Positions 1 to 63,326 are shown, numbered from the whole stretch's first letter. The stretch: 63,718 nucleotides of DNA, filler included, from Candidatus Coatesbacteria bacterium (GCA_016927185.1; 6 parts of 6 records of this genome joined end to end with filler, not necessarily neighbours in it); one strand, 5' to 3'. Translations and numbers: made by a program. The notes: generated by a model not told the origin, from the sequence alone.

Positions 1-85
1 ATGGCTCCTCAAATATCCTGCGCATTTTGAGATCAAAAGTCCTCAAATATCCTGCGCATTGCCTTGTTTTTCTCTTATCTCGACA
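1..85. mobile_element. Terminal end of a multicopy transposable element (ends in ACA; two 21-bp internal direct repeats)
   Basis: Exact reverse complement of 48137-48221. TCCTCAAATATCCTGCGCATT occurs at 6-26 and 40-60. The copies lie at the window start and at a contig break. Confidence 0.7.
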
Positions 86-5265: not shown

Positions 5266-5733
5266 TTATTTCAGCTCGTCGATAGTTTGCTTCATTTCCT
5301 TCTGGCTTATTGAATTCGTTCTTAGAGAGACTTTTCCTTCCTTGTTTATTATATAATTCACTGGAAGGAATTTGTTGAAAACATAGGATTTCCATGCAAC
5401 ATTGTTTGAATCATCAAGAAAAACAAGGTTTTTGCATTTTTCCTGGAAAGGTTTTACTGATTGCCTGCTATTATAATACAACAGGAAGAAAACTACATTA
5501 GACTTCTTGTAATCAAGGGCTAGCTTGTCCAGCCATTTTATTTCCTGTCTGCAATAGACACAAAAAGGACTGAACCAGGTTAAGACAATGACCTTTCCTT
5601 TGTAATCGCTGAGTTTGTATTCCTTTTTCTTGCCAAAGCAGTGCAGCTTGAAGTCAGGGGCAGGATCTCCTTTCTGGACTGCTGCAAAAACAAGACTAAC
5701 TGCGAATAGAATAAGGATAATTGTATTTCTCAT
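5266..5733 (-). CDS. TlpA/ResA-family thiol-disulfide redoxin (CVYC), exported
   Basis: GDPAPDFKL...LSDYKGKVIVLTWFSPFCVYC...P.NYIINKEG; signal peptide. Confidence 0.88.
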   Translation of the reverse strand: MRNTIILILFAVSLVFAAVQKGDPAPDFKLHCFGKKKEYKLSDYKGKVIVLTWFSPFCVYCRQEIKWLDKLALDYKKSNVVFFLLYYNSRQSVKPFQEKCKNLVFLDDSNNVAWKSYVFNKFLPVNYIINKEGKVSLRTNSISQKEMKQTIDELK

Positions 5734-5803
5734 CTGAACCTCATTTAAAAAAAAATATGAATTCGATATATAAGTTTTTTGTCAAGAAGAGTCTTGCTGT
5801 GAA

Positions 5804-5837
5804 TTTAATATAGCCCATAGACATCATGGACTGACTT
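5804..5837. repeat. Dispersed ~30-bp intergenic motif TAATMTAGCCC.TAGACAT.ATGGACTGA, copy 1
   Basis: Similar copies at ~16293-16322, 52385-52418 and 63401-63432. Confidence 0.65.
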
Positions 5838-5858
5838 ATGGGGAAGTTATATCAAGTT

Positions 5859-5885
5859 GTTATCCTGAACTTGTTTCAGGGTCTC
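5859..5885. repeat. REP-like palindrome GTTATCCTGAACTTGTTTCAGGGTCTC
   Basis: Imperfect inverted repeat CCTGAA..TTCAGG just downstream of a gene end; resembles the widespread GTCATCCTGAACTTGTTTCAGG REP-like family. Confidence 0.55.
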
Positions 5886-5903
5886 ATTCCTTGTTTCCAC
5901 TTA

Positions 5904-6818
5904 CTACCTTACCTTCACCACCCTCTTGCATTCCTTCCCTGTCTTAATAATATAAACTCCCTGTTTCCAGCTGCTTGTATCAAGAGAATGCTTGCCTTTA
6001 TCTAGTTTCATTATTAGTTGCCCAGTCAAAGAATAGATAGCCCCTGAAGATGGCAGGGAGAGTGACAAGCGGGAGGAGAAGGGGTTGGGAGAAATGGAGA
6101 AGGATTTGGATGGAATATAAGATGTTGATTTGTTACTACTGTAACCAGTATTAATATAGGTTTCTATTGCATATAAATAATAATCATCACTTCCAACATA
6201 AACAATTCCAACTGCGATACAGGGAGAAGAATATACCCAACTACCTGTCTTATATTTCCATTTAAGAGTTCCTGTTGAGCAGTTTATTGCATTAAGATAA
6301 TGATCACAACTTCCAACATAGACAACTCCATCTGAAACACAAGGAGAGGACAAGTAAATCCAAAAATCTGTCTTATATCTCCATTTAAGAGTTCCATCAG
6401 AGCAGTTTATTGCATAAAGATAATCATCTCTACTTCCAATATAAACAACTCCATCAGAAACACAAGGAGAAGATTCAACCATTCCACCTGTCTGTTATCT
6501 CCATTTAAGACTTCCATCTGAGCAGTTTATTGCATAAAGATAATCATCCTCACTTCCAACGTAAACAACTCCTTCTGAAACACAAGGAGAAGAGTAAACC
6601 CGATCACCTGTCTTATATCTCCATTTAAGAGTTCCAGCTGAGCTGTTTATTGCATAAAGATAAGAATCATCACTTCCAACATAAACAACTCCATTTGCGA
6701 CACAAGGAGAAGAATGAACACCAGAACCTGTTTGATATCTCCATATCAAATCTCCGGGAGCTGAGAAAAGAAATCCTATTGAAAAAAGAATGAAAATAGA
6801 GATCAATAATGCTTTCAT
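5904..6818 (-). pseudogene. PQQ-like (BamB-type) beta-propeller repeat protein, 5 repeats plus T9SS-type CTD, interrupted by one in-frame TAA
   Basis: ORFs 6495-6818 and 5904-6482 are in the same frame. KWR*QTG has TAA where the other repeats have a Tyr codon. Confidence 0.8.
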
Positions 6819-6828
6819 TTTTACCTCC

Positions 6829-8109
6829 CTACATCTTTATAATTCTTTTTGATTTATTATTGCACTTCACAATATAAACTCCCATTCTCCATTTACTTGT
6901 GTCTATAGAATGCTTTCCTTTATCTAACTTCATAATCAGCTGACCAGTAAGGGAATATACAGCTCCTGAGGATGGTAGAGTTACTGACAGGTGGGAGGAG
7001 AAGGGATTGGGAGATATGGAGAAAGATTTAGCTGGAATTTTAATATCTGTTTTTTTATCCCTAAAGCCATCTTTATAAGTTTCTATGGCATAAAGGTTAT
7101 CATCATTACTTCCGACATATACAACTCCATCTGAAACACAAGGGGAAGAGGAAATACCTATTAAGTTTTCAATGCTATGTATACTTCCAAATCTCCACCT
7201 AAGAGATCCATCTGAGCAGTTTACTGCATAAAGATTATTATCATTACTTCCAACATATACAACTCCATCTGAAACACAAGGAGAAGAACTAATATAAGAT
7301 CCTGTTTGATATCTCCACTTAAGAGTTCCATCAGAGATATTTATTGCATAAAGATAATTATCATCACTCCCAACGTAAACAACTCCATCTAAGACACAAG
7401 GAGAGGAGTAAACATAATGACCTGTCTGATATCTCCATTTAAGAGTTCCATTAGAACAATTTATTGCATAAAGATAATTATCATTACTTCCAATATATAC
7501 AACTCCATCTGAAACACAAGGAGAAGAATTAACCCAAGCGCTTGTCTGATATCTCCATTTACGTTTTCCATTTGAGCTATTTACTGCATAAATCTCGCAA
7601 GACAAACTTCCAATATAAATAACTCCATCTGAGACACAAGGTGATGAAGTAAGAATATATGTCCAATATCTCCATTTAAAAGCTCCATCTGAACAATTTA
7701 TTGCATATAGATACTGGTCTTGACTTCCAACATAAACAACTCCATCTGAAACACAAGGTGAGGAGTAAATAACATTTTTCGTTAAATATCTCCATTTAAG
7801 AGTTCCATCAGAACAGTTTATTGCATAAAGATAACTATCATCACTCCCAACATAAACAACTCCATCTAAGATACAAGGTGAGGAGTCAACTTCATCACCT
7901 GTCCTATATCTCCATTTAAGAGTTCCATCAGAACAGTTTATTGCATAAAGATAATGATCATCACTCCCAAAATAAACAACTCCATCTGAGACACAAGGTG
8001 AGGAGTAAATATTATCACCTGTCTCATACTTCCATATCAAATCCCCTGGCGCTGAAAAGAGAAGATTATTCAAGTATAGCAGAAATAAGATAATTATTAA
8101 AATTCTCAT
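6829..8109 (-). CDS. Secreted PQQ-like beta-propeller protein (8 x 40-aa repeats) with T9SS type A-like CTD
   Basis: Repeats LKWRYxTGxxVxSSPCVSDGVVYVGSxDxxLYAINCSDG; signal peptide; C-terminal SPNPF...GVYIVK...KRIIKM. Confidence 0.9.
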   Translation of the reverse strand: MRILIIILFLLYLNNLLFSAPGDLIWKYETGDNIYSSPCVSDGVVYFGSDDHYLYAINCSDGTLKWRYRTGDEVDSSPCILDGVVYVGSDDSYLYAINCSDGTLKWRYLTKNVIYSSPCVSDGVVYVGSQDQYLYAINCSDGAFKWRYWTYILTSSPCVSDGVIYIGSLSCEIYAVNSSNGKRKWRYQTSAWVNSSPCVSDGVVYIGSNDNYLYAINCSNGTLKWRYQTGHYVYSSPCVLDGVVYVGSDDNYLYAINISDGTLKWRYQTGSYISSSPCVSDGVVYVGSNDNNLYAVNCSDGSLRWRFGSIHSIENLIGISSSPCVSDGVVYVGSNDDNLYAIETYKDGFRDKKTDIKIPAKSFSISPNPFSSHLSVTLPSSGAVYSLTGQLIMKLDKGKHSIDTSKWRMGVYIVKCNNKSKRIIKM

Positions 8110-8487
8110 ATTACCTCCTGCATTTCCTTCAAATCTTTATGAAATATGCATTTTGCATATTTTACATAATTCCGAGATTATTAAATTTCCAAATATTACT
8201 GAGAGGTAGAAAAAAACTAAAAAGTCAAGGAATTTTTATTCTTCTTGCTAAAAAAATATATCCTTGAAGCATGAATGCGGATAAATCAATGTCGATATTG
8301 AAAATCAAACTTAATTCCTTGAACGATATAAATTTTACTTTCTCAATAAAACTTTTTCATGTGAATATTATCACTTTCTTTCAATCCACCATATTAAAAA
8401 GGTTTTTCCACACTTAATTTCAAACAGCTCTTGACAAAAAAAACACAAACTCACTGCATATCTTAATATAAGGAAACAAGGAGTGCA

Positions 8488-10926
8488 ATGAAATCAAGGA
8501 AAAACAGGAATTTTATTCCTCACTTCATCTTGAAGCAATTTATATTAAAACAGTACTTTGGAAATTTCAGGGCAATAATTATATATGCAGATATAACAGG
8601 AATAGCAAAACTCATTGATCACATGCTTCTTGAAGGAAAAGCAGGAGCAGCAGTATTGAGCCAGGAACTTGAATTCCTGTTCGAAGAAATGAATAAGGAG
8701 ATATACACAAGAGGCGGATTTGTTGGGGATTATCATGGTGATGCTTTTGCTGCTTATTTTCCAATCTTGAATGACCAGACTGCAACATGGGAAAGGGCAA
8801 GAACTGCTGCTGATGGCTTGCTTGGTTTTTTTGCCAAAAAGGGAAACAGGCATACAAAATTGGGAATCTATGCCTTGAATGTGAAAATCGGAATGGGTAT
8901 CGGTAATGTGGAATGGGGAATTGTAGGTGAAAACAGGCAGTTCGGATGGTATTTCAGGGGCAATGGACTTGCACAGGCAGTTCAGGCTGAAGGAATGGCT
9001 GAAATAGGCAGAATCTATATTCCGGGGGAGCTTCAGGGACTGGGACCCGCAAGGAATTTCGAGGAAGATGAAATAGAAAGGGAGGATATTGATATTCCAC
9101 TTAATGCAATTACCAGTTTTTATTCACCAGATATACTGAATTTCGAATGGGGAGACATCAGAAATATTGTTGCCTTATCAATAAGATTCATTGGTGCATT
9201 GGATTATGACAAACTGAATGAGTTGTATGCAATTGCATCGAGATTCGGCATTCGCTATGGAGGATACGTAAACAACCTGGAATTCCATGGCAAGCCAAGA
9301 AATCTACTTGTAATTTTCGGATTCCCTTTTGATAACGGTGATATATTAAGAAGGGCATTGAGTTATGTAACAAATTTCAAGGCAGCAATAGAAAGGGGAG
9401 TTCTTCCAGTTCAGCTGAAAGCTGCAATTGCATCATCCAATGCATTCTGCGGTTTCAGGGGAGGAGAACTGAGAGCAGAACCGGTCTGCATAGGTCCTGC
9501 AATTGGTTTTGCTGATATATTACTGAGAGTTACTGAACCTGATAATATTGTAATGCCAGAAGATCTTGCGAATGCAACAAATAATTTCGCAAATGTCAGC
9601 CTTGTTGCAAAGAAGAATTTCAGGGGCATTAAAAATACAGTTGCATATTTCAAGCTTGACAATCTGCAGAATCTTGCTGATGGTCTTGGAATGACTGAGA
9701 AATTAAAGGGAAGATCAAATGAACTGAGTTTTCTCAAAAAAGAGATAAAACAGAAATTCGAGAAAAGGGCATTTGGTGGTGTAATACTTGTAAGAGGTGA
9801 AGCAGGCATAGGGAAATCCCATCTTATCTACTCATTAAGGCAGATACTTGAAGAGGAGAAAACTCCGCATCACTGGGTTTATGTAAGAAATGACCCATTA
9901 TATCCACAGCCTTATGGAGGATTTGTAAGATTTTTTTACAGATATTTCAGGCAGGAAAGATCAAAGAGACAGGCAGAAAACAAAGCCAGTTTTCTTCAGG
10001 TTGCATCTGAACTGATGGCAGCAAGAACAATGCCAGCCAAGCTAAAGGCAGGATTGCAGCATAACCTGTCGTTCTTAAGCGATCTCATAGGTTTGAAATG
10101 GCCTGATTCCGTAGCAGCATTGACTACAGAAGAAGACAAGTACAAGGATTTACTCTACAAGACAATGAAAGCCTTTTTTGTTGCATTATCTTTCAAGATT
10201 CCTGTTATAATACATATAGAGAATGCAGATTCTCTGGACAAGGAGACAAAGGAATTCCTGCCATTTTTGTTACAGAATATGCAGAATGTACCGATCACTA
10301 TAATTGCTACTGCAAGAGGTAATGAATCTCCGGGATGGTACAATGAATTATGCCAGGAATATCAATGCAGGGAGATAGTGCTTAAAACACTGGAAGACAA
10401 ATATATTAACGGTATTGCATATGCAGAGATTGGAAATCATCCTTCAAAAGCATTCATGGAATATTTATATAAAATATCGGAATATAATCCAATGAAGCTT
10501 TTGATAGCTATACAGACATTGAAACTTCTGGATATCATTAAGATGGATCCAGTAAATAATCTGGCTGATCTGCCAGAGGATCCGAAAGCAATTCCTGATA
10601 CTATAGATAAATGTCTGAATATGCAGCTTGAGAAAATCCCCAAGAAGCTCGTTAATATAATAAAACAATCCGCAGTAATAAGTGACTGGTTTCCAGTATT
10701 TCTTTTTAATTATACAAAGGAAGAAACCGAGCTGATAGACAAGGATTTGTTGCTTCTGTGTGAAAGATACAATTACTTCATGTTCGAGAAGATAAGTATT
10801 GCTGATGAGGAAACTTATCTTATATATACTTCCAATATTATAAGGGAATTCCTGCTTTCAAAAATTCCAAAAAAGAAACTTGATGAAATGAGGAATAATC
10901 TGGAGAAGGCTTTAAAAAATCAGTGA
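8488..10926 (+). CDS. Class III nucleotide cyclase domain(s) fused to a STAND/AAA ATPase
   Basis: YADITG and GDAF cyclase motifs; degenerate second cyclase domain; Walker A GEAGIGKS. Confidence 0.8.
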   Translation: MKSRKNRNFIPHFILKQFILKQYFGNFRAIIIYADITGIAKLIDHMLLEGKAGAAVLSQELEFLFEEMNKEIYTRGGFVGDYHGDAFAAYFPILNDQTATWERARTAADGLLGFFAKKGNRHTKLGIYALNVKIGMGIGNVEWGIVGENRQFGWYFRGNGLAQAVQAEGMAEIGRIYIPGELQGLGPARNFEEDEIEREDIDIPLNAITSFYSPDILNFEWGDIRNIVALSIRFIGALDYDKLNELYAIASRFGIRYGGYVNNLEFHGKPRNLLVIFGFPFDNGDILRRALSYVTNFKAAIERGVLPVQLKAAIASSNAFCGFRGGELRAEPVCIGPAIGFADILLRVTEPDNIVMPEDLANATNNFANVSLVAKKNFRGIKNTVAYFKLDNLQNLADGLGMTEKLKGRSNELSFLKKEIKQKFEKRAFGGVILVRGEAGIGKSHLIYSLRQILEEEKTPHHWVYVRNDPLYPQPYGGFVRFFYRYFRQERSKRQAENKASFLQVASELMAARTMPAKLKAGLQHNLSFLSDLIGLKWPDSVAALTTEEDKYKDLLYKTMKAFFVALSFKIPVIIHIENADSLDKETKEFLPFLLQNMQNVPITIIATARGNESPGWYNELCQEYQCREIVLKTLEDKYINGIAYAEIGNHPSKAFMEYLYKISEYNPMKLLIAIQTLKLLDIIKMDPVNNLADLPEDPKAIPDTIDKCLNMQLEKIPKKLVNIIKQSAVISDWFPVFLFNYTKEETELIDKDLLLLCERYNYFMFEKISIADEETYLIYTSNIIREFLLSKIPKKKLDEMRNNLEKALKNQ

Positions 10927-15879: not shown

Positions 15880-16069
15880 TTACTCTACCTTCACCACCCT
15901 CTTACATTCCTTCCCAGCCTTCACAATATAAACTCCCTCTCTCCATTTGCTTGTGTCAATAGAATGCTTGCCTTTGTTCATCTTCATAATAAGTTGACCA
16001 GTCAGGGAATAGACAGCTCCTGATGATGGAAGGGAAAGAGACAAGCGGGATGAGAAGGGGTTGGGGGAG
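15880..16069 (-). CDS. 3' fragment of a secreted protein: T9SS-type CTD cassette only (cut by the gap)
   Basis: Manual translation SPNPFSSRLSLSLPSSGAVYSLTGQLIMKMNKGKHSIDTSKWREGVYIVKAGKECKRVVKVE*. Confidence 0.85.
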
Positions 16070-16169
16070 NNNNNNNNNNNNNNNNNNNNNNNNNNNNNNN
16101 NNNNNNNNNNNNNTTAATTAATTAANNNNNNNNNNNNNNNNNNNNNNNNNNNNNNNNNNNNNNNNNNNN
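16070..16169. other. Artificial contig linker
   Basis: N44-TTAATTAATTAA-N44 (stops in all six frames). Confidence 0.98.
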
Positions 16170-25734: not shown

Positions 25735-27375
25735 TTACCTAATTTTTACTATTCGCTTTGTTTCTTTCCCGCTCTTCACTATATAAACTCCCTCTTTCCA
25801 TTTGCTTGTGTCAAGAGAGTGTTTGCCTTTGTCTAACTTCATAATCAATTGACCGCTAAGGGAATAAACAGAAGTTGTATAAGGCAGGAAGAGATACAAA
25901 CGATTGGAAAAGGGAGAAGGACAAACTGAAAATTTTAATGAAGGTATTGAAGTTGTTTCAGTATCATCGAAATCCTGCTGATCAGTAATTGTAAATGACT
26001 GGTCACTGATATCTTCCTTGTAATCATAATCTGCCCAATATCCTTTAACCCAGCAGTCATTTGAAGGATCATCTGGAATTGTCCACATGAAGCTTTTGCT
26101 AGTACCTTGTCCCCTGTAAATCTCTTTATAGTTACCATTTTTACCATTGGATGAGTAGAAAACCATTACTCTTCCATTATCAGGACAATCCCATTGTACA
26201 AGATGCTGTGAGCCTGTCAGCCAGGTTTCCCCGCCATTAGGTGATATCACGCGTATAAATCTTTCTTGTTCCCTCTCCGATTGAACCAGATAACCATAAA
26301 CATCCTTGCCTCCACCAATAAGGTAGGAATTCCCATCAGCAACAATTGCATTCCCTATCTCGCTTCCGGAAGTCCCGATATATTTAGTCCAGAGCGTATT
26401 TCCATCCTTGTCTGTCTTGAGAAGAATAATGTCATTACCGCCTGAACCATAAGATGTTGTATAGCCGCAGAAAACATAACCATCACTTTCAATGCATATA
26501 TCATTGAATTGTTCAAAACCACTTCCTGTAATCCTTTTTGCCCATATATAGTTTCCCGAATTGTTTATTTTTGCATACATTGCGTCATTATTTATTCTGC
26601 CGCATAAAATATAACCATCATCTCCTGTCTTTGCACCAAAGATGATTCCTGGATTATCTGCCTTGATCCATATAACTCTGAATTCAGAATCAACCCTCAT
26701 GTACATACATTGACTTCCGCTATATGATTTAAAACCACCAATAATCATCCCATTGTCGAATGTCATATCCCCTGAATATGCAAAATAATAAGCATCAGAA
26801 GGTGAATAACCGCGTTTAAATACATTGCCGTCTGGATCGAGTTCTGCCATAAAAACCTTGCTTCTATATTTGTGATAATAACTTCCATTATGACCGGTAT
26901 TTCCAATTACATAGAATTTGTCAGCAGCTGGCTTCAGTATTCTCCTCAATTCACTGAATGGTTTGTCTTCTTCCTCTATTTCCATAAGGTGATTTTTTTC
27001 CCATTGTGCATAGCCATAATTATTCAATTTAAACAATACTGATGCTGTAACATAATACAAATGATAACCATCATTCCTGAAGTCTATCTTGTATCCTGCA
27101 ACAAGATATCCACCATCTTCGCATTGAACTGAATATAGAGCTGAATTGTCATTATTCCATCCAAAAGTATAATTGAAAAGAACTGTTCCGTACTGATCAG
27201 TTTTTCCATACCATCCCTTGCTATCAACCTTACCGCAGATCATATTACCGTTATCTGTGCATTTGTTTACTGAATTGATAACAGTCCTGTTTCCGAAATC
27301 ATAAGTCTTCTCCCATGAAAAAAGAGCCGAGGAGCAAATGCAAATAACTGAAACCACTGAAAATAAGGATTTCGT
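25735..27375 (-). CDS. Secreted beta-propeller-like protein with a PNGGE Ig-like domain and T9SS-type CTD; probable start is an ACG at 27375
   Basis: D.G....W.K repeats, ISPNGGETW domain, CTD cassette. In-frame ACG-KSLFS sits 6 nt after AAAGGA (ORF track starts at GTG 27357). Confidence 0.75.
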   Translation of the reverse strand, partial: TKSLFSVVSVICICSSALFSWEKTYDFGNRTVINSVNKCTDNGNMICGKVDSKGWYGKTDQYGTVLFNYTFGWNNDNSALYSVQCEDGGYLVAGYKIDFRNDGYHLYYVTASVLFKLNNYGYAQWEKNHLMEIEEEDKPFSELRRILKPAADKFYVIGNTGHNGSYYHKYRSKVFMAELDPDGNVFKRGYSPSDAYYFAYSGDMTFDNGMIIGGFKSYSGSQCMYMRVDSEFRVIWIKADNPGIIFGAKTGDDGYILCGRINNDAMYAKINNSGNYIWAKRITGSGFEQFNDICIESDGYVFCGYTTSYGSGGNDIILLKTDKDGNTLWTKYIGTSGSEIGNAIVADGNSYLIGGGKDVYGYLVQSEREQERFIRVISPNGGETWLTGSQHLVQWDCPDNGRVMVFYSSNGKNGNYKEIYRGQGTSKSFMWTIPDDPSNDCWVKGYWADYDYKEDISDQSFTITDQQDFDDTETTSIPSLKFSVCPSPFSNRLYLFLPYTTSVYSLSGQLIMKLDKGKHSLDTSKWKEGVYIVKSGKETKRIVKIR

Positions 27376-32945: not shown

Positions 32946-33045
32946 NNNNNNNNNNNNNNNNNNNNNNNNNNNNNNNNNNNNNNNNNNNNTTAATTAATTA
33001 ANNNNNNNNNNNNNNNNNNNNNNNNNNNNNNNNNNNNNNNNNNNN
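32946..33045. other. Artificial contig linker
   Basis: N/TTAATTAATTAA/N. Confidence 0.98.
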
Positions 33046-38443: not shown

Positions 38444-38543
38444 NNNNNNNNNNNNNNNNNNNNNNNNNNNNNNNNNNNNNNNNNNNNTTAATTAATTAAN
38501 NNNNNNNNNNNNNNNNNNNNNNNNNNNNNNNNNNNNNNNNNNN
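38444..38543. other. Artificial contig linker
   Basis: N/TTAATTAATTAA/N. Confidence 0.98.
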
Positions 38544-48223: not shown

Positions 48224-48323
48224 NNNNNNNNNNNNNNNNNNNNNNNNNNNNNNNNNNNNNNNNNNNNTTAATTAATTAANNNNNNNNNNNNNNNNNNNNN
48301 NNNNNNNNNNNNNNNNNNNNNNN
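48224..48323. other. Artificial contig linker
   Basis: N/TTAATTAATTAA/N. Confidence 0.98.
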
Positions 48324-55943: not shown

Positions 55944-56210
55944 ATGAAGTATTTAGTCTTCATATGCTTATGCCTTTCTATCATTTATTTGCATTCAGCA
56001 CCTGGTGATTTGATATGGAAATATAAGACAGGTGATTATATAGTATCCTCTCCTTGTGTCTCAGATGGAGTCGTTTATGTTGCTAGTGGCTTATATCTTT
56101 ATGCGATAAAAACTGCCAGTTATAAATACCTATCGAGGAATAAAACAACACAATTCAAGCCTGTTTCATCTAAATCCAGTTTTTCATTACCAACCAAACC
56201 AGAGGAATAG
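55944..56210 (+). CDS. Single-repeat PQQ-propeller mini-gene (collapsed or chimeric paralogue)
   Basis: AGGAGG RBS; signal peptide, SAPGDLIWKY, one repeat, KSSFSLPTKPEE tail. Confidence 0.7.
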   Translation: MKYLVFICLCLSIIYLHSAPGDLIWKYKTGDYIVSSPCVSDGVVYVASGLYLYAIKTASYKYLSRNKTTQFKPVSSKSSFSLPTKPEE

Positions 56211-56345
56211 GATTTTTTTGTGCAACTAAATGGAGAGAACAGGTTTACTTTATTAAGTCCAATAAGGAGTACAAGAGGATAATAAAGATATAGAATTTTT
56301 AGAAGTATTGTTCCTATTTAATATTTTTGAGAGAAAGGAAATGCA

Positions 56346-57524
56346 ATGAAACTAGGATCTGCAGTAATTATAAGTCTTATAATTTCACTTTCATTGATTG
56401 CATTCTCTTGTGGTGATGAAGATGAAGATAATAATGACTCAGGAACTGGTACTGGAAGCGGGACTAGTTTTATTAGTTTACTTTTATGGAGATATAAGAC
56501 AGGTGGAGATATTAACTCTTCTCCTTGTGTCTCTGATGGAGTTGTTTATGTTGGAAGTAATGATTCTTATCTTTATGGAATAAACTGTTCAGATGGAACT
56601 ATTAAATGGAGATATAGGACAGGTAATTGGATTTTGTCCTCTCCTTGTGTCTCTGATGGAGTTGTTTTTGTTGGAAGTAATGATAATTATCTTTATGCAA
56701 TAAACTGTTCAGATGGTACTTTGAAATGGAGATATGAGACTGGTAATTATGTTTATTCCTCTCCTTGTGTCTCAAATGGAGTTGCTTATGTTGGTAGTTG
56801 GGATGCTTATCTTTATGCAATAAACTGCTCAGATGGAACACTAAAATGGAGATATTATATATTTAGTAGAGTTGACTCATCTCCTTTTGTCTCAGATGGA
56901 GTTGTTTTTGTTGGAAGTCAGGATGATTATCTTTATGCAATAAACTGCTCAAATGGAACTCTTAAATGGAGATATAAGACAGATGATTATGTTTACTCCT
57001 CTCCTTGTGTCTATGATGGAATTGTTTATGTTGGAAGTTTTGATAGTTATCTTTATGCAATAAACATTACTGATGGAACTCTTAAATGGAGATATAGGAC
57101 AGGTAATTGGATTTTGTCCTCTCCTTTTGTCTCTGATGGAGTTGTTTATGTTGGAAGTCATGATGCTTATATTTTTGCAATAAACTGCTCAGATGGAACT
57201 CTAAAATGGAGATATCTTACTGGTAATAGTGTTGACTCCTCTCCTTGTGTTTCTGAAGGAGTTGTTTATGTTGGAAGCTGGGATGATTATCTTTATGGAA
57301 TAAACTGTGCAGATGGAACTCTAAAATGGGAGTTTAAGACAGGTCTTGATGTTCAATCTTCCCCTTGTGTTTCAGATGGAGTTGTTTATGTTGGAAGTTA
57401 TGATAGTTATCTTTATGCAGTAAAAGCTGGCAGTTATAAAAGATTATCAAAGAGCAAGTTTCCTGAAAAGAGACAGAGTTCGTTTAAATCCAGTTTTTCA
57501 TTGCCAACCAATCCAGAGGAATAG
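56346..57524 (+). CDS. PQQ-like beta-propeller lipoprotein (8 repeats)
   Basis: Lipobox AFSC, acidic/Gly-Thr linker, eight 120-bp repeats, KSSFSLPTNPEE tail. Confidence 0.9.
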   Translation: MKLGSAVIISLIISLSLIAFSCGDEDEDNNDSGTGTGSGTSFISLLLWRYKTGGDINSSPCVSDGVVYVGSNDSYLYGINCSDGTIKWRYRTGNWILSSPCVSDGVVFVGSNDNYLYAINCSDGTLKWRYETGNYVYSSPCVSNGVAYVGSWDAYLYAINCSDGTLKWRYYIFSRVDSSPFVSDGVVFVGSQDDYLYAINCSNGTLKWRYKTDDYVYSSPCVYDGIVYVGSFDSYLYAINITDGTLKWRYRTGNWILSSPFVSDGVVYVGSHDAYIFAINCSDGTLKWRYLTGNSVDSSPCVSEGVVYVGSWDDYLYGINCADGTLKWEFKTGLDVQSSPCVSDGVVYVGSYDSYLYAVKAGSYKRLSKSKFPEKRQSSFKSSFSLPTNPEE

Positions 57525-57552: not shown

Positions 57553-57652
57553 NNNNNNNNNNNNNNNNNNNNNNNNNNNNNNNNNNNNNNNNNNNNTTAA
57601 TTAATTAANNNNNNNNNNNNNNNNNNNNNNNNNNNNNNNNNNNNNNNNNNNN
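57553..57652. other. Artificial contig linker
   Basis: N/TTAATTAATTAA/N. Confidence 0.98.
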
Positions 57653-57746: not shown

Positions 57747-58661
57747 ATGAGTGCATTTTTAATACTTCTGATTGCTATAACTTATTTTTCACCTGCTATC
57801 ACCTTGATTATTCCCAACGGAGGAGAGAAATGGAGAGTTGGTTCGACACAGAAAGTGAAATGGCAAGCAGATAGTCAGGATTTATGGTGGATTGGATATA
57901 CTACCCAGGGTTACGGCAACTGGAAACAGATTGCATATGGTTACAACAGCAGCAGAGAATATGACTGGCTGATCCCAGACACTCCTTCAGATAACTGCCG
58001 AGTTGAGCTTATTGTAGATTGGTACTATTATACCTATTTTGATCAAAGTGATAATCCGTTCAGTATATACAAAGGATCATTAAATGTGACTTCCCCAAAT
58101 GGAGGTGAGAGATGGGCAGCTGGATCAAGTCATGATATTACCTGGGAAACAACAGGTAATATTCCTTTTGTAAGACTTGCATATTCAACAAATGGAGGGC
58201 TTGTATGGCATGCCATTGCTTTCAACATTGATCCAAAGACATGTCTATATTCATGGCAGCTTCCAGATGTAAATTCAGATTATTGCTATGTAAAAATTGC
58301 TGATGATATAGACGAATACTATAACGATAGAAGTGATAATTATTTTACTATTTACAGTACAGGTTTTAATGCAAAAAATAATACAATTACTTTACCATCA
58401 AAGATTGATTTGACTGTCTCTCCCAATCCTGTGAGAAAAACCGCGAAAATATCCTTCTTTTTGCCCAAAACATCATCTGTAGATTTTTGCATTTATAATA
58501 TGAAAGGAGAAAAAATACTAGTTGAAAATCCAGGGATTTTTCAGAAAGGGCTTAACGATTTCTATTTAAGGAATTTAAGTATTATTAGTGATGGCATATA
58601 TTTGTTGCATATCAAGACTCCATATGCTTCAAATAGCTGCAGATTTATAAAACTTAAATGA
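57747..58661 (+). CDS. Secreted protein with two PNGGE Ig-like domains and T9SS type A-like CTD
   Basis: PNGGE.W..GS...I.W...D.SDN.F.I twice; VSPNP...IYN.KG...G.Y... Confidence 0.8.
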   Translation: MSAFLILLIAITYFSPAITLIIPNGGEKWRVGSTQKVKWQADSQDLWWIGYTTQGYGNWKQIAYGYNSSREYDWLIPDTPSDNCRVELIVDWYYYTYFDQSDNPFSIYKGSLNVTSPNGGERWAAGSSHDITWETTGNIPFVRLAYSTNGGLVWHAIAFNIDPKTCLYSWQLPDVNSDYCYVKIADDIDEYYNDRSDNYFTIYSTGFNAKNNTITLPSKIDLTVSPNPVRKTAKISFFLPKTSSVDFCIYNMKGEKILVENPGIFQKGLNDFYLRNLSIISDGIYLLHIKTPYASNSCRFIKLK

Positions 58662-61073: not shown

Positions 61074-63326
61074 CTACCTCATTATTACTAGTCTCTTGCT
61101 TACTTTCAAATCATTTGCTTCAATAGTATAGATATAAACCCCATTTGGAACGGAATTATAACCCACATTCCATGCTATACTCTTAAAACCAGAATTCAGC
61201 GTGTTTTCATAAACTGTTTTCACCAGTTTTCCAGTCAAGTCATAGACTTTTATAAGGATTTTTGTCTTGACTGGCAAGTTGATCTTGAAAATCGCTTTTT
61301 CTCTAACCGGATTAGGGAAAATACCGAGGAATTCAGTTTTTCCAGGTATTTTGACAGCACTTTTATTAACTGCAAAGCCAGATTTTTCTTCAACCCTTAT
61401 GCTGTCAAGTGCAGGGACAGTATTAACAAAACTTGCTGTTGCTTGTATCCATCCGGTTTTCTGTTCTGAAACAAAGAATAATACTGTACCGGAGGTATTG
61501 GTTGTATCAACTCTATAGAGGTTTGGTTCATTCAAATTATAATCATGTTGCCACAAGCAGACTTTTGAACCTGAAACAGGTACATTGTCTCTTGTTACAT
61601 TTATTGTCAGCACTGTTCCTTCTCCCTGAACTACTGTATCTTTATCAGAAGCTAAAGCCAGTATCCCAGGATCCTTTGTTCTTATCTCAGCAGCTGGATC
61701 AGCATTATACCAGTACATGTATATTATATCTCTTCCGTAACTGCCTTCCTGGTTGAGTTTTACATCAGCAAACATCTTGCATAATGACATTCGGTGTATT
61801 CCTTCATTGAAGGTAGCTTTTATTATTTCCTTGGCAAGTGTATGATTATTGTTTGTCCATGAAGGATCTGATGATCCGAGACTCGAGACAGCTCCCCCTG
61901 GATATTTATTCAGTAATGCTTCCTGGAAAGTGTAGTTATTATATCTTAGATCAGCATTATCACAACATATATTGTATACAACAGGATATCTGTCTTCATT
62001 ATTAAGCTGATTTACGTCACTGGTACTATAGCATTGGGATACATTCCAGTAATACCAGCTTATAGCATCTCCATGACCTCTGTATAATACAACTCCCGAG
62101 CCTATATTAATAGAATTAGAAACGTTTTGATTGTTTTTCTGTCCCTGGCTTCCTGAGCCATAAATTTTCTCGAAATTAGGTTGCTGCTTTGTATAAGAAA
62201 AACCAGCGATTTGTTCACAACATCCTTCATATTTACCAGGTGCTTCCTGGTAATGAGCTACCAGTGGAAGATGGCTATACCATGTTCCAAAAGCAGGAGT
62301 CAGGATATAATATAATGTCCTGCTTATATGAACTCCAAGTTCATCATTATTCTTTATAGCAAAACGTCCAATTCCGAATTCACATAAAGCATCATTACCA
62401 TCCACCATTGCATAATAAGTATCACTTAATGCACTATATGCAGAATATCGATGGGTATACATCGGAATATCAACATAGTCACCAATTATCAGCACGTATT
62501 TTATGCCATAGCTATGATAGGCATTAGCAAGATAGTTTTTTACATTGTCAACTGAAGCCCCAATCTGGGATATGGGAACAGTCATAACATAAAATCCGCT
62601 ACGAATATACCAGGTAACAAGTGGAGCGAAAACATTTTCTGTTCCATCTTTATATATAATAAGGTATTCAGGGTTTGGAGGTGCATCAGTGTATCCAACA
62701 TTCTTGCTTTGATAGTTAATTATCCTGTTCCTGTACATTTTATCCCAATCAGGATCAACCTTTTTCACTGGACAAGAAGGAAATTTGGGATCAGGATTAT
62801 CAACAAAACTGATTACTATTTTTGCCTTCTTGAAGATTGCAAGAGTTTTATTATTCCTGTCATATCTGAAAGGTATGAAATTTAAACCCGACACAACCAG
62901 GTGACGCCATATGGAATTTTCTTCCATGACCGCAGAAGTTGCTGGAAAATATCCCTTGTAATCTTTTGCAATTGGTTTTGCTGGTTCTTGTGTGTCCACT
63001 GTAGGTTCAGGAGTTGGCAGAACATCAATATTTTTAATATATATCATTTCTGCATCCTTGACTGTAGCTATTGCTTTCTTGTTTCCAGGCAAAGTTATCA
63101 AGGTTGTGAATTTAGGCAAATAAGGGAAACCGGTTTCATCAGTATAACTGCAATCATTTACTACAATTTTTGAATAACCACTTTTATCCTTTGCTATATT
63201 ATATTCAGGCATCTCGAATTCCAGAATGACTTTGCTTGCATCGCTTCTAATTAATTTGAATGGCGCATTTGCATTAAGCAAAGAAAATGCAAATAGCAGA
63301 ATTGAAAATGAAATGAGAAATTTCAT
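61074..63326 (-). CDS. Gingipain-like C25 cysteine peptidase with propeptide and T9SS type A-like CTD
   Basis: G.P.LP propeptide, YVLIIGD, SD.YY, IGR, YRGHG (His), NICCD (Cys); FPNP...VYDLTGKLV...GVY...KRLVIMR. Confidence 0.9.
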   Translation of the reverse strand: MKFLISFSILLFAFSLLNANAPFKLIRSDASKVILEFEMPEYNIAKDKSGYSKIVVNDCSYTDETGFPYLPKFTTLITLPGNKKAIATVKDAEMIYIKNIDVLPTPEPTVDTQEPAKPIAKDYKGYFPATSAVMEENSIWRHLVVSGLNFIPFRYDRNNKTLAIFKKAKIVISFVDNPDPKFPSCPVKKVDPDWDKMYRNRIINYQSKNVGYTDAPPNPEYLIIYKDGTENVFAPLVTWYIRSGFYVMTVPISQIGASVDNVKNYLANAYHSYGIKYVLIIGDYVDIPMYTHRYSAYSALSDTYYAMVDGNDALCEFGIGRFAIKNNDELGVHISRTLYYILTPAFGTWYSHLPLVAHYQEAPGKYEGCCEQIAGFSYTKQQPNFEKIYGSGSQGQKNNQNVSNSINIGSGVVLYRGHGDAISWYYWNVSQCYSTSDVNQLNNEDRYPVVYNICCDNADLRYNNYTFQEALLNKYPGGAVSSLGSSDPSWTNNNHTLAKEIIKATFNEGIHRMSLCKMFADVKLNQEGSYGRDIIYMYWYNADPAAEIRTKDPGILALASDKDTVVQGEGTVLTINVTRDNVPVSGSKVCLWQHDYNLNEPNLYRVDTTNTSGTVLFFVSEQKTGWIQATASFVNTVPALDSIRVEEKSGFAVNKSAVKIPGKTEFLGIFPNPVREKAIFKINLPVKTKILIKVYDLTGKLVKTVYENTLNSGFKSIAWNVGYNSVPNGVYIYTIEANDLKVSKRLVIMR

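What the first reader, a model, noticed from the sequence alone, without database searches (positions are those of the whole stretch)
5904..8109. Repeat-built beta-propeller repertoire with fixed scaffold and hypervariable positions
Seen: 22 copies of a 120-bp/40-aa unit in four genes (8, 5, 1 and 8 repeats; the others at 55944-57524). Scaffold codons are nearly invariant, including usually two Cys per repeat. Variation concentrates in the loop after WRYxT, the residue before SSP, and GSxDxx (x = D, N, Q, L, E, R, C, W, F, H, Y; aromatic-rich). Inference: the variable residues form one binding face, giving an antibody- or VLR-like diversified family of secreted binders (adhesion, prey or host recognition, phage decoys) generated by repeat shuffling. 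Many variant codons are NNT, reachable from AAT by A-to-N change as in DGRs, but no RT or template repeat is in the window, so that link is speculative.
Basis: partly seen in the sequence, partly recalled or inferred. Interest (0 to 1): 0.75.

Follow-up and report, generated by a model that had tools for sequence, protein, structure and literature searches.

The report
Hypervariable secreted propeller gene family
These genes belong to a family of some 60-80 exported eight-bladed propeller proteins in one uncultured sediment bacterium; the blade scaffold is kept alike across genes while seven loop positions per blade on one face change fast, so the family looks like an inherited set of surface binders with unknown targets.

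Summary
There are 22 copies of a 120-bp/40-aa unit in four ORF sets, with variation concentrated at unit positions 4, 6-8, 10, 25 and 27.

Corrections:
- The window is several contigs joined by N runs, so the two gene pairs are not shown to be linked.
- Gene B carries an in-frame TAA.
- Scaffold codons are similar (77-86% same codon), not invariant.

The proteins are PQQ-like (BamB-type, non-catalytic) eight-bladed beta-propellers. Most have a signal peptide and a type IX secretion (T9SS) sorting tail. The four genes are a sample of a genome-wide family: 84 ORF pieces, 464 blades, 3% of a 3-Mb assembly.

Main results:
- All hypervariable positions lie in the D-A and B-C loops, which is one face by propeller topology.
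- Their dN is about 2-2.5 times the scaffold dS.
- They are rich in Tyr, Trp, Asn, Asp and Gly.
- In the young subset, blades are as alike between genes as within genes, with no blade-position register, while the flanking tails are near synonymous saturation. This indicates exchange of blades between loci.
- No reverse transcriptase and no DGR codon signature were found.

The closest analogue is the fungal HNWD WD-repeat family. I read this as an inherited multigene repertoire, not somatic diversification. The scan's index held no look-alike.

The parts
6829..8109 (-). Gene A, 426 aa: signal peptide, eight-bladed PQQ-like propeller, linker, T9SS type A sorting domain
   Evidence: ORF. PF13570 231 bits (cut-off 133), PF13360 179.7 bits, PF18962 31.7 bits (cut-off 27). 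AF2 mean pLDDT 92.
8050..8109 (-). Signal peptide of A (residues 1-20, ending ...LLFS/APGD)
   Evidence: Read from the sequence. Helix 2-17 in the model. The same N-terminus recurs in the paralogues. No signal-peptide predictor was run.
7081..8040 (-). Propeller of A (residues 24-343). The N-terminal strand 24-29 supplies strand D of blade 8, closing the ring ('velcro'). Seven hypervariable positions per blade lie in the D-A and B-C loops.
   Evidence: DSSP strand list of the model; entropy profile.
6832..7017 (-). T9SS C-terminal sorting domain of A (residues 365-426)
   Evidence: PF18962 and TIGR04183 over their cut-offs. Genome scan places it at C47:6838-7017.
5904..6818 (-). Gene B: signal peptide, five blades and sorting domain, broken into 107-aa and 192-aa ORFs by one in-frame stop
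   Evidence: ORFs; sequence. Read through the stop: PF13570 150.3 bits, PF18962 28.0 bits.
6495..6497 (-). In-frame TAA in gene B, at the Tyr position of the WRY motif of blade 3
   Evidence: Sequence. The genome search reports '1 TAA' inside the match. TAA is the commonest stop codon in the genome.
55944..56210 (+). Gene C, 88 aa: family-type signal peptide, one blade with a shortened B-C turn, and the same C-terminal tail as gene D. It looks like a collapsed array.
   Evidence: ORF; unit C1; tails compared; PF13570 only 28.1 bits.
56346..57524 (+). Gene D, 392 aa: lipoprotein-like signal (..AFSC) with an Asp/Gly/Thr-rich linker, eight blades, and a short basic tail ending SFSLPTNPEE. It has no T9SS domain. 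Contig C53 ends 28 nt downstream.
   Evidence: ORF. PF13570 260.2 bits and no PF18962 match. Contig map.
15886..16068 (-). Sorting-domain fragment of a further family member, cut by the end of contig C47
   Evidence: 77% identical to residues 366-426 of A; PF18962 match at C47:15892-16065.

Best explanation
The four ORF sets belong to a lineage-specific multigene family of exported, non-catalytic PQQ-like (BamB-type) eight-bladed beta-propellers.

Architecture. A typical member has a Sec signal peptide, eight 40-residue blades closed by an N-terminal 'velcro' strand, a short linker and a type A T9SS sorting domain. It is therefore probably carried across the outer membrane and released or fixed to the cell surface (inferred from Bacteroidota). 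A minority, gene D among them, carry a lipoprotein signal instead.

Variable face. Each blade puts two loops (D-A and B-C) on one face of the disc. Seven positions in these loops, 56 per propeller, are hypervariable. They are rich in Tyr, Trp, Asn, Asp and Gly and change faster than synonymous sites, while the rest of the blade is under strong purifying selection.

Exchange. In the younger part of the family, blades are exchanged or homogenised between loci without regard to blade position. They are also duplicated and deleted within arrays, giving members with 1-9 blades, chimeras and pseudogenes.

The result is an inherited repertoire of binders on one scaffold with different binding faces. 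It is made by ordinary mutation, homologous recombination or gene conversion, and diversifying selection, as in the fungal HNWD WD-repeat family. It is not made by a DGR.

Shown here: fold, export signals, family size, position of the variable sites in the loops, rate ratios, lack of blade register, and flanks older than blades. Inferred: surface display, binding as the function, and selection rather than targeted mutation. Unknown: the ligands.
For: Family identity: PF13570 and PF13360 far above their cut-offs; PF18962/TIGR04183 above cut-off in A and B. The AF2 model has mean pLDDT 92 and pTM 0.76, with eight four-stranded blades and a C-terminal beta-sandwich. The Foldseek top natural matches are BamB (24-27% identity) and YxaL 7dxn (31%). 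The top match overall is the designed Cake8 6tjg (45% identity, TM 0.95 on the target).

Secretion: an SprA homologue (406 bits, cut-off 200) and a PorV homologue (76.6 bits, cut-off 27) are in the genome, along with 150 CTD matches.

Family size: 84 stop-to-stop ORF pieces with 464 blades on 56 of 109 contigs, 89,490 bp or 2.99% of the assembly, in 11 tandem groups. 36 look intact (24 of them with 8 blades; the rest have 1-7 or 9 by HMM count). Gene A gives 81 match places in its own genome against at most 14 in any of 30 other genomes.

Variable face: entropy is 2.5-3.9 bits at positions 4, 6, 7, 8, 10, 25 and 27. All of them lie in the D-A loop or the B-C turn. 345 of 346 blades have a distinct signature. 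Enrichment over the proteome is Y 2.5x, W 3.2x, N 2.2x, G 2.3x and D 1.8x.

Rates: parsimony counts on 82 young blades give dN/mean dS of 1.0-2.1 at the seven sites. Core scaffold sites give 0.03-0.3. The exposed loops of the other face (17, 18, 34-38) give 0.23-0.88. Disjoint nearest pairs, chosen on half of the scaffold columns and measured on the other half, give hypervariable dN/dS of 2.10 (1.70-2.57) and 2.47 (1.86-3.36).

Exchange between loci: only 26 of 312 blades have their best match in their own gene. 71 of 312 have it at the same blade index (39 expected), and 24 of those are blade 8. The A-versus-paralogue matrices are flat. The same-codon fraction is 0.773 within A, 0.767 for A x D and 0.791 for A x C34, against 0.49 expected; old members sit at 0.46-0.50. 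Pooled over the 21 pairs among seven young genes, blades score 0.725, sorting tails 0.578 and signal peptides 0.447. For gene A the tails are at 0.44-0.54, with saturation at 0.405. Gene D has unrelated ends but blades of the same young pool.
Against: - No coordinates of the model could be read, so 'one face' rests on strand order and propeller topology, not on measured distances.
- Site by site, using each site's own synonymous count, the excess of non-synonymous changes is weak: p = 0.08, 0.06 and 0.02 at positions 7, 25 and 27, and not significant at 4, 6, 8 and 10.
- The rate tests use Nei-Gojobori counts on short, recombining, AT-rich repeats. No codon-model or recombination-aware test was run.
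- A flat blade matrix can also come from a star-like burst. The argument against that rests on the flank comparison, which has only 40-60 informative codons per pair.
- The blades of one young gene (C19) are no more alike to the others than the flanks are (0.57-0.62).
- There is no expression, localisation or ligand evidence.
- The assembly is a fragmented metagenome bin. 22 of 84 pieces lie at contig ends, so counts are uncertain and more identical copies may have collapsed.
- Five members (B, C38, C6, C10, C35) contain in-frame stops, so part of the family is decaying.
Confidence: 0.6

Rival explanations
1. An ordinary, recently amplified propeller family with relaxed loops. The blades were amplified and the genes duplicated in a burst. 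The top-face loops are simply free to drift, and there is no selection for diversity and no recognition repertoire. The proteins could serve one bulk role such as a surface coat or polymer binding.
For: New propellers are continually amplified from single blades and often decay, PQQ-type ones included (Pereira and Lupas 2022, passages). Site-by-site tests are mostly not significant. Over all 346 blades the ratios at positions 7, 8, 10, 25 and 27 are only 1.2-1.4. The same scaffold/variable-loop pattern occurs in homologues from many other organisms: in the 41 of 120 listed homologues with at least 5 near-complete blades, median scaffold identity is 0.71 against 0.23 at the variable positions. 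Several members are pseudogenes.
Against: Hypervariable dN exceeds held-out scaffold dS about twofold, with bootstrap intervals above 1. The exposed loops of the other face stay below 1. The composition is skewed to Tyr/Trp/Asn/Asp/Gly rather than random. Blades are younger than their flanks, which a single burst does not give.
Confidence: 0.22
2. Targeted hypermutation. A diversity-generating retroelement or another programmed mutator rewrites the loop codons.
Against: No RVT_1 match was found in the 93.4%-complete genome, where 2 candidates were scored and neither matched. Overall the NNY fraction is 62.4% at hypervariable codons and 62.7% in the scaffold. 522 of 2408 hypervariable residues are W, E, Q, K or M. 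N, D, Y and H are encoded only by NNY codons, so their enrichment explains the excess. The variable sites are spread over 464 blades in about 80 ORF pieces, not in one C-terminal variable region beside a template.
Confidence: 0.03
3. Assembly artefact. The arrays are chimeras or collapsed consensus of many near-identical repeats in a metagenome bin, so blade order, blade number and the apparent lack of register are not biological.
For: The assembly has 109 contigs and 22 of 84 family pieces touch a contig end. Contig C53 ends 28 nt after gene D. An independent assembly of the likely source run is shattered into 74-157-nt pieces here, and none bridges an array.
Against: The longest exact words shared with any other place are 49 and 57 nt, shorter than usual reads. 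24 intact-looking members keep one open frame through eight blades with both end modules. The model folds at pLDDT 92. Several pieces from run X1 match the window without a difference. The hypervariable/scaffold contrast does not depend on blade order.
Confidence: 0.07
4. These are enzymes or housekeeping factors: PQQ-dependent dehydrogenases, or BamB proper.
For: The best-scoring named models include BamB and the PQQ alcohol dehydrogenase family. BamB is the top natural fold match. Gene D has a lipoprotein signal, as BamB does.
Against: All equivalog cut-offs are missed by far: TIGR03300 188.7 against 285.2, NF008351 164.4 against 423, TIGR03075 127.8 against 480. There are 60-80 copies. Most carry a T9SS tail that would send them out of the periplasm, where BamB works. 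The propeller is about 320 residues without the inserts of the dehydrogenases.
Confidence: 0.03

Closest known systems
Podospora anserina HNWD/NWD family (het-d, het-e): WD40 repeats in concerted evolution with positively selected top-face positions (Paoletti, Saupe and Clave 2007, PMC1805685; abstract and sections 7 and 10 read)
   Same: - A beta-propeller built of very similar ~40-residue repeats.
- Repeats exchanged within and between loci of a multigene family.
- Variable repeat number and pseudogenes.
- Selected positions in the D-A loop and the B-C turn on the interaction face.
- Non-repeat parts of the genes older than the repeats.
   Different: - WD40, not PQQ-like.
- 10 genes and 69 repeats there, against about 80 ORF pieces and 464 blades here.
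- Cytosolic NACHT-WD (NLR) proteins that trigger cell death there; exported proteins with T9SS or lipoprotein signals and no signalling domain here.
- Fungal against bacterial.
- Repeat identity reaches 100% there; here the best is about 91% at the nucleotide level in the window genes.
Highly repetitive, recently amplified beta-propellers, including PQQ-type (Pereira and Lupas 2022, PMC9218822; passages only)
   Same: Blades of near-consensus sequence, a continuum from repetitive to diverged members, blade-number variation, and disruption by in-frame stops and frameshifts. PQQ-type propellers made up 1.7% of their repetitive set.
   Different: The passages I read treat single proteins across databases. 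They do not describe a family of tens of paralogues in one genome, a T9SS tail, hypervariable loop positions or rate tests; 'hypervariable' does not occur in the main text. I did not see their supplements, which may list such proteins.
BamB (YfgL) and YxaL, solved eight-bladed PQQ-like propellers without cofactor (3q7m, 3prw, 7dxn and others)
   Same: The same fold and blade motif, protein-binding and non-catalytic. Foldseek E 1e-20 to 1e-23, TM 0.77-0.84 on the target.
   Different: 24-31% identity. The BamB model cut-offs are not reached. BamB is one copy per genome, a periplasmic lipoprotein, and has no T9SS tail.
T9SS type A CTD cargo proteins (TIGR04183 / PF18962)
   Same: Signal peptide plus a C-terminal sorting domain over both curated cut-offs in A and B. 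SprA and PorV homologues are in the genome.
   Different: The organism lies outside Bacteroidota. Earlier notes of this scan call it Ca. Coatesbacteria; I did not test that. GldK is not found above its cut-off. Surface attachment is not shown. Genes C and D lack the domain.
DGR variable proteins
   Same: A fixed scaffold with a patch of hypervariable, Tyr/Asn/Asp-rich ligand-binding positions.
   Different: No reverse transcriptase, no template repeat and no adenine-specific codon pattern were found. The fold is a propeller rather than C-type lectin or Ig. The variable sites are spread over hundreds of repeats.
Designed symmetric eight-bladed propellers (Cake8, 6tjg)
   Same: The best structural match: 45% identity, rmsd 1.1 A, TM 0.95 on the target. 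The natural blades are close to an idealised consensus.
   Different: It is artificial, with identical blades and no variable face.

Membership tests
PQQ-like beta-propeller repeat proteins (Pfam PF13360 PQQ_2 / PF13570) | Profile match above the curated cut-off | tested here: met
   A: PF13570 231 bits (cut-off 133), PF13360 179.7 (27.6). D: 260.2 and 177.8. B read through: 150.3 and 110.2. C: only 28.1 for PF13570, below the cut-off.
PQQ-like beta-propeller repeat proteins (Pfam PF13360 PQQ_2 / PF13570) | Eight four-stranded blades closing into a ring | tested here: met
   AF2 model of A: mean pLDDT 92, 8 x (A, B, C, D) strands, with N-terminal strand 24-29 completing blade 8. Foldseek matches BamB and Cake8. 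Genes B (5 blades) and C (1 blade) cannot close such a ring alone.
T9SS type A cargo (TIGR04183 / PF18962) | C-terminal sorting domain above the cut-off | tested here: met
   A: TIGR04183 28.3 (cut-off 23), PF18962 31.7 (27). B: 27.7 and 28.0. Not met for C and D, which have no match.
T9SS type A cargo (TIGR04183 / PF18962) | N-terminal Sec signal peptide | tested here: inconclusive
   A basic start, a hydrophobic stretch and ..LFS/APGD are seen in the sequence and shared by the paralogues. Helix 2-17 in the model. No signal-peptide predictor was available.
T9SS type A cargo (TIGR04183 / PF18962) | T9SS machinery encoded in the same genome | tested here: met
   SprA at 406 bits summed in one 1925-aa frame (cut-off 200). 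PorV at 76.6 and 40.1 bits (cut-off 27). GldK has only partial matches below its cut-off. PorU, GldL, GldM and GldN were not searched.
BamB (TIGR03300 / NF008351) | Equivalog score cut-off | tested here: not met
   188.7 against 285.2, and 164.4 against 423.
PQQ-dependent alcohol/glucose dehydrogenases (TIGR03075, TIGR03074) | Family score cut-off | tested here: not met
   127.8 against 480, and 37.6 against 833. Cofactor-binding residues were not examined.
DGR target (variable) protein | Reverse transcriptase in the genome | tested here: not met
   0 matches to PF00078 at E <= 0.01 in the genome, which is 93.38% complete. Absence from the unassembled part cannot be excluded.
DGR target (variable) protein | Variable codons consistent with adenine-specific mutagenesis of AAY template codons | tested here: not met
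   The NNY fraction equals the scaffold's (62.4% against 62.7%). 21.7% of hypervariable residues need NNR codons.
DGR target (variable) protein | Non-coding template repeat near the variable region | not tested
   With 464 similar blades a similarity search cannot single out a template, and without a reverse transcriptase there was no place to look.
Concertedly evolving hypervariable propeller repeats (HNWD-type behaviour; 'works like', not a sequence family) | Repeats as alike between loci as within, while non-repeat parts are older | tested here: met
   Same-codon fraction 0.773 within A, 0.767-0.791 between genes, 0.49 expected. Gene A's tails at 0.44-0.54 against blades at 0.74-0.79 for five of its six young paralogues. 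This holds for the young subset only; old members are saturated.
Concertedly evolving hypervariable propeller repeats (HNWD-type behaviour; 'works like', not a sequence family) | Positive selection at positions of the D-A loop and B-C turn | tested here: met
   Pooled dN/dS 2.1-2.5 with bootstrap intervals above 1. Single-site tests are weak. No codon-model test was run.
Concertedly evolving hypervariable propeller repeats (HNWD-type behaviour; 'works like', not a sequence family) | NACHT/STAND ATPase joined to the repeats (membership in the NLR family proper) | tested here: not met
   No such domain is present in A, B, C or D.
Somatically diversified receptors (antibody, VLR) | Programmed assembly or mutation within an individual lineage | not testable with these tools
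   Only assembled contigs of public runs were available, with no raw or long reads.

The most novel reading that the evidence does not exclude
Bacteria of several uncultured lineages may keep an inherited, extracellular recognition repertoire. It would consist of tens of T9SS-exported propellers on one consensus scaffold, whose 56-position binding faces are diversified by selection. Blade cassettes would be pooled across loci by gene conversion, so that every blade in the genome feeds variation to every gene. This would be a prokaryotic, secreted counterpart of the fungal HNWD/NLR repeat system. Candidate uses are telling apart particles, neighbours or phages. Homologues in WOR-3, Chloroflexi and Thermoplasmatota metagenome proteins show the same scaffold/variable-loop contrast, which would make it a general strategy rather than a curiosity of one genome.
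Probability: 0.3. Interest if true: 0.75.

Novelty: new variant of a known kind. Interest (0 to 1): 0.55.

Why it matters
Repeat proteins with a fixed scaffold and a selected variable face are the usual way cells build recognition repertoires (LRR, WD40, ankyrin).

In prokaryotes this has been described mainly for intracellular STAND/NLR-like proteins and for DGR targets. Here a 3-Mb genome of a little-known candidate phylum spends 3% of its DNA on exported propellers that show the same evolutionary signature without a mutator.

If the faces bind different targets, the family would give three things:
- a natural library of stable, near-consensus eight-bladed binders, 45% identical to a designed propeller;
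- a handle on what an uncultured sediment anaerobe senses or sticks to;
- a bacterial case of exchange of repeat units between loci that can be followed in metagenomes.

If the loops merely drift, it remains a clear example of the propeller amplification and decay cycle.

Tried and rejected
DGR: rejected.

TAA recoding in gene B: rejected, because TAA is the commonest stop codon.

Read-level check of assembly, repeat number and the TAA: only Logan contigs were served.
- The likely source run X1 (0.68 of the sampled words) gives short pieces of 74-157 nt, several without a difference.
- None bridges an array or was shown to cover 6495-6497.
- Many 'joints' are cross-matches between paralogous blades.
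- Nothing can be concluded on mis-assembly or copy-number variation.
- Runs X2 and X3 laid 877 and 592 contigs at 90% likeness or more onto parts of the arrays. These are short conserved pieces, and I draw no conclusion about habitat from them.

Orthologous loci in other samples: the metagenome scan returned 4 loci of 63 candidate stretches, all at 34-43% identity. Strain-level comparison was not possible.

Close relatives: the held collection has no other genome of the same phylum, and the 30 'relatives' are kin only at domain level.

Exposure, clustering in Angstroms and Cys-Cys distances were not measured.

A disulfide between the two conserved Cys: they co-occur (odds ratio 5, p = 2e-9). 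However, one sits in strand A and the other after strand C, two strands apart, so a bond within a blade looks unlikely. Not tested.

Positional orthology of blades between paralogues: looked for and not found, except for blade 8.

Loop cassette sharing: only 8 D-A loop strings recur among 346 blades. Of the 12 pairs sharing one, 1 also shares positions 25+27. This is too few to show recombination inside a blade.

Literature: searches found no paper on a PQQ-type T9SS paralogue expansion or on hypervariable PQQ blades. PMC9425974 was opened and is irrelevant.

Scan index: no look-alike by sequence and none by the full word set. 65 notes mention PQQ propeller repeats; the 8 shown were in other contexts.
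Full report
WHAT IS THERE

The window is not one stretch of chromosome. It is six contigs of a 109-contig, 2.99-Mb assembly joined by N runs. The finding at 5904-8109 lies on contig C47. The 'other' genes at 55944-57524 lie at the very end of contig C53, which stops 28 nt after the last stop codon. Their distance in the window therefore means nothing.

On C47, minus strand:
- Gene A (6829-8109) encodes 426 aa.
- Directly downstream lies a second gene, B (5904-6818). It is split into ORFs of 107 and 192 aa by a single in-frame TAA at 6495-6497, at the place where all other repeats read W-R-Y.
- TAA is the commonest stop in this genome (694 of 1446 ORFs of 300 aa or more), so the stop is real as assembled.

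On C53, plus strand:
- Gene C (55944-56210) encodes 88 aa.
- Gene D (56346-57524) encodes 392 aa.

Tandem Repeats Finder reports period-120 arrays with 77-81% matches in A, B and D. Cutting at the SSP motif gives 8, 5, 1 and 8 units, 22 in all.

WHAT THE PROTEINS ARE

- A, B (read through the stop) and D match the PQQ-like propeller families PF13570 and PF13360 far above their cut-offs.
- A and B also match the T9SS sorting domain (PF18962, TIGR04183) above cut-off. C and D do not.
- The named equivalogs are missed by a wide margin: BamB 188.7 against 285.2 bits, PQQ alcohol dehydrogenases 127.8 against 480.
- An AlphaFold2 model of A, built on an alignment of 20 paralogues and 15 outside homologues, has mean pLDDT 92 and pTM 0.76. 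It shows a signal-peptide helix, eight four-stranded blades, a disordered linker (347-356) and a C-terminal beta-sandwich.
- The N-terminal strand (residues 24-29) precedes the first A strand, and blade 8 ends after its C strand. The ring is therefore closed by the usual 'velcro' arrangement. This explains why the sequence repeat starts at strand D and why the last unit differs.
- Foldseek's best match is the designed eight-bladed Cake8 (6tjg: 45% identity, rmsd 1.1 A, TM 0.95 on the target). The best natural matches are BamB (24-27% identity) and YxaL (31%).
- The genome encodes an SprA translocon homologue and PorV homologues above their cut-offs. GldK was found only below its cut-off.

THE FOUR GENES ARE A SAMPLE OF A VERY LARGE FAMILY

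An HMM of the 22 units finds 464 units in 84 stop-to-stop ORF pieces.
- They lie on 56 of 109 contigs and total 89,490 bp, or 2.99% of the assembly, in 11 tandem groups.
- 61 pieces carry the family's own type of sorting tail.
- 36 look intact (signal-peptide motif, tail, not at a contig end). 24 of these have eight blades; the rest have 1-7 or 9 by HMM count.
- 22 pieces are cut by contig ends. The repeats break the assembly, so all counts are approximate.
- Members share a stereotyped signal peptide (..LLFSAPGDLIW..) and tail (..GKHSLDTSKWREGVYIVK..).
- Gene A finds 81 places in its own genome against at most 14 in any of 30 other genomes. All 30 are related only at domain level.
- The held collection has no second genome of this phylum. 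Earlier notes of this scan call the organism Ca. Coatesbacteria; I did not test that.
- The genome has at least 150 T9SS-tail matches in all.

THE VARIABLE POSITIONS

I number the unit from the Trp of WRY. Over 346 near-complete units of the 464:
- Positions 4, 6, 7, 8, 10, 25 and 27 carry 2.5-3.9 bits of entropy.
- W1, S11, S12, P13, G23, S24, D26, Y30, G37 and K40 stay at 1 bit or less.

In the model each blade reads as follows:
- strand D: 39-4
- D-A loop: 5-13
- strand A: 14-16
- A-B turn: 17-18
- strand B: 19-23
- B-C turn: 24-27
- strand C: 28-33
- C-D turn: 34-38

Every hypervariable position lies at the end of strand D, in the D-A loop or in the B-C turn. In an antiparallel four-stranded meander these two connections open on the same face. 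Paoletti et al. place them on the 'top' interaction platform of WD40 propellers (section 10). I could not read coordinates, so this is topology and not measurement.

345 of 346 blades have a distinct seven-residue signature. The positions are enriched over the proteome in Trp (3.2x), Tyr (2.5x), Gly (2.3x), Asn (2.2x) and Asp (1.8x), and depleted in Ile, Val, Leu and Pro.

RATES

A parsimony count on a tree of 82 blades from the most repetitive members gives the following dN over mean dS:
- 1.0-2.1 at the seven sites
- 0.03-0.3 at core scaffold sites
- 0.23-0.88 at the exposed turns of the opposite face (17, 18, 34-38)

Exposure alone therefore does not explain the excess. Tested site by site against each site's own synonymous count, the excess is weak: p = 0.08, 0.06 and 0.02 at positions 7, 25 and 27, and not significant elsewhere.

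In disjoint nearest-neighbour pairs whose scaffolds are at least 90% identical (27 pairs), hypervariable dN is 0.71 against scaffold dS 0.165. That choice of pairs biases dS downward. I therefore chose pairs on half of the scaffold columns and measured dS on the other half. The ratio is 2.10 (bootstrap 1.70-2.57) and 2.47 (1.86-3.36) for the two splits.

These are Nei-Gojobori counts on short, recombining repeats. A codon-model test is still needed.

BLADES ARE POOLED ACROSS GENES

Among 312 blades of 39 eight-blade ORFs:
- Only 26 have their closest relative in their own gene.
- 71 have it at the same blade index, where 39 are expected by chance. 24 of those 71 are blade 8, which has a special end.

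Blade-by-blade matrices of A against six paralogues are flat: diagonal 0.71-0.80, off-diagonal 0.70-0.78.

Is this only amino-acid conservation plus codon bias? I tested the fraction of identical codons at sites with the same amino acid:
- 0.773 within A, 0.864 within D
- 0.767 for A x D, 0.791 for A x C34:24252
- 0.49 expected from family codon usage
- 0.46-0.50 in six old, diverged members, which are saturated

The family therefore spans young to old propellers. In the young set, blades are equally related within and between genes.

The flanks of the same genes are much older:
- For A against its six young paralogues, the linker plus sorting tail scores 0.44-0.54, with saturation at 0.405.
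- The blades score 0.74-0.79 against five of them and 0.61 against the sixth (C19).
- Pooled over the 21 pairs among seven young genes, blades score 0.725, tails 0.578 and signal peptides 0.447.
- C19's blades are an exception, being no younger than its flanks.

Gene D has unrelated ends (a lipoprotein-type signal with a Gly/Thr-rich linker and a short basic tail) but blades of the same pool. Gene C joins the family-type signal peptide to one blade and D's tail, as expected from a deletion between blades.

Short in-frame members with 1, 2, 3 and 5 blades and both end modules exist. Five members carry in-frame stops.

This is the logic by which Paoletti et al. inferred concerted evolution within and between loci in the fungal NWD family (section 7). 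I infer exchange of blade sequence between loci by gene conversion or unequal recombination. No exchange event was observed directly.

NOT A DGR

- No reverse-transcriptase match was found in the 93.4%-complete genome.
- Overall, however, the NNY share at hypervariable codons equals that of the scaffold (62.4% against 62.7%).
- 522 of 2408 hypervariable residues are W, E, Q, K or M, which no NNY codon encodes.
- Asn, Asp, Tyr and His have only NNY codons, so their enrichment explains the pattern.

ASSEMBLY

- The longest exact words that the arrays share with any other place are 49 and 57 nt. Reads of usual length can place them.
- The likely source run holds 0.68 of the sampled words. Only its Logan contigs were available, and they are shattered here. 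Some pieces match without a difference, but none bridges an array.
- Mis-assembly and read-level variation remain untested.

HOW GENERAL

Of 8000 scored candidates, 6498 pass E <= 1e-10. The family 'PQQ-binding-like beta-propeller repeat protein' is therefore huge and well known as an annotation.

Among the 120 listed proteins, 41 had at least five near-complete blades. They show the same contrast: median blade-to-blade identity is 0.71 at scaffold columns against 0.23 at the seven columns, with extremes such as 0.93 against 0.35. The entropy peaks are the same. This set is biased towards consensus-like proteins by the query.

COMPARISON WITH PRINT

Pereira and Lupas 2022 (passages read) describe continual amplification of propellers from single blades. 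They include PQQ-type ones (1.7% of their repetitive set) and frequent disruption by stops and frameshifts. In the passages I read they do not treat hypervariable positions, T9SS cargo or large paralogue sets. I did not see their supplements.

Paoletti et al. 2007 (abstract and two sections read) describe the same evolutionary mode in fungal cytosolic NLR-type WD40 proteins.

Afanasieva et al. 2019 I saw only in the search listing. It reports that propeller fragments with fewer blades were tested for folding as oligomers, which bears on the short members here.

Five searches found no description of a PQQ-type T9SS expansion with hypervariable blades.

VERDICT

This is a real, very large and fast-turning-over family of exported propellers. 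One face is diversified and the blades are pooled across loci. It is a new variant of a known kind.

Binding is the most likely function, at about 0.6 for the whole reading. The ligands are unknown. Somatic or DGR-type diversification is not supported.

Noticed in passing
window 1-63718 (N runs at 16070-16169, 32946-33045, 38444-38543, 48224-48323, 57553-57652): The window is six contigs joined by paired 44-N runs with 12 letters between them. Its first 60 bases also occur at the ends of contigs C46 and C52, a repeat at contig junctions.
   Followed up: partly
window 5266-5733 (-): A small AhpC/TSA-redoxin protein with a hydrophobic N-terminus lies directly downstream of gene B on the same strand. 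Given one or two conserved Cys per blade, a link to thiol chemistry of the exported propellers is conceivable. It is untested.
   Followed up: no
window 56346-56470 (+); also G000 C74:32144-32632 and C15:2258-3934: A sub-family replaces the Sec signal and T9SS tail by a lipoprotein-like signal (..SC/NC) followed by an Asp/Asn- and Gly-Thr-rich low-complexity linker. The blades come from the same young pool.
   Followed up: partly
unit positions 14 and 34 in all blades, e.g. window gene A residues C39 and C59: The two conserved Cys co-occur across 346 blades (93 both, 119 first only, 18 second only, 116 neither; odds ratio 5, p = 2e-9). Strand order makes a disulfide within a blade unlikely. 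The first Cys opens strand A, next to the central channel.
   Followed up: partly
G000, whole genome; in the window e.g. 57747-58661 (+), 61083-61322 (-), 25741-25998 (-): There are at least 150 T9SS sorting-domain matches in a 3-Mb genome. 110 ORFs carry the family-type tail, and 49 of these have no PQQ blade. One example is a 304-aa protein with a weak Kre9/KNH-like match and a borderline PF18962 score of 26.3 (cut-off 27), though TIGR04183 scores 29.8 (cut-off 23).
   Followed up: partly
window 8488-10926 (+): An 812-aa protein with an AAA_16 (STAND-type) ATPase domain at residues 405-606 and an unassigned N-terminal half is divergently placed next to gene A.
   Followed up: no
window 5700-8300 laid on runs X2, X3: Two runs labelled biogas fermenter metagenome laid 877 and 592 short contigs at 90% likeness or more on parts of the arrays. 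Very similar blade sequences therefore occur in other samples. Which organisms carry them was not examined.
   Followed up: no
model of gene A against PDB: The closest solved structure to this natural protein is a computationally designed symmetric propeller (Cake8, 6tjg, 45% identity), ahead of every natural structure.
   Followed up: no
G000 C38:14815-16305, C6:1984-3261, C10:1-999, C35:9477-9704: Further family members or tails have a single in-frame TGA or TAA inside the match. They were not examined for sequencing error against true decay.
   Followed up: no
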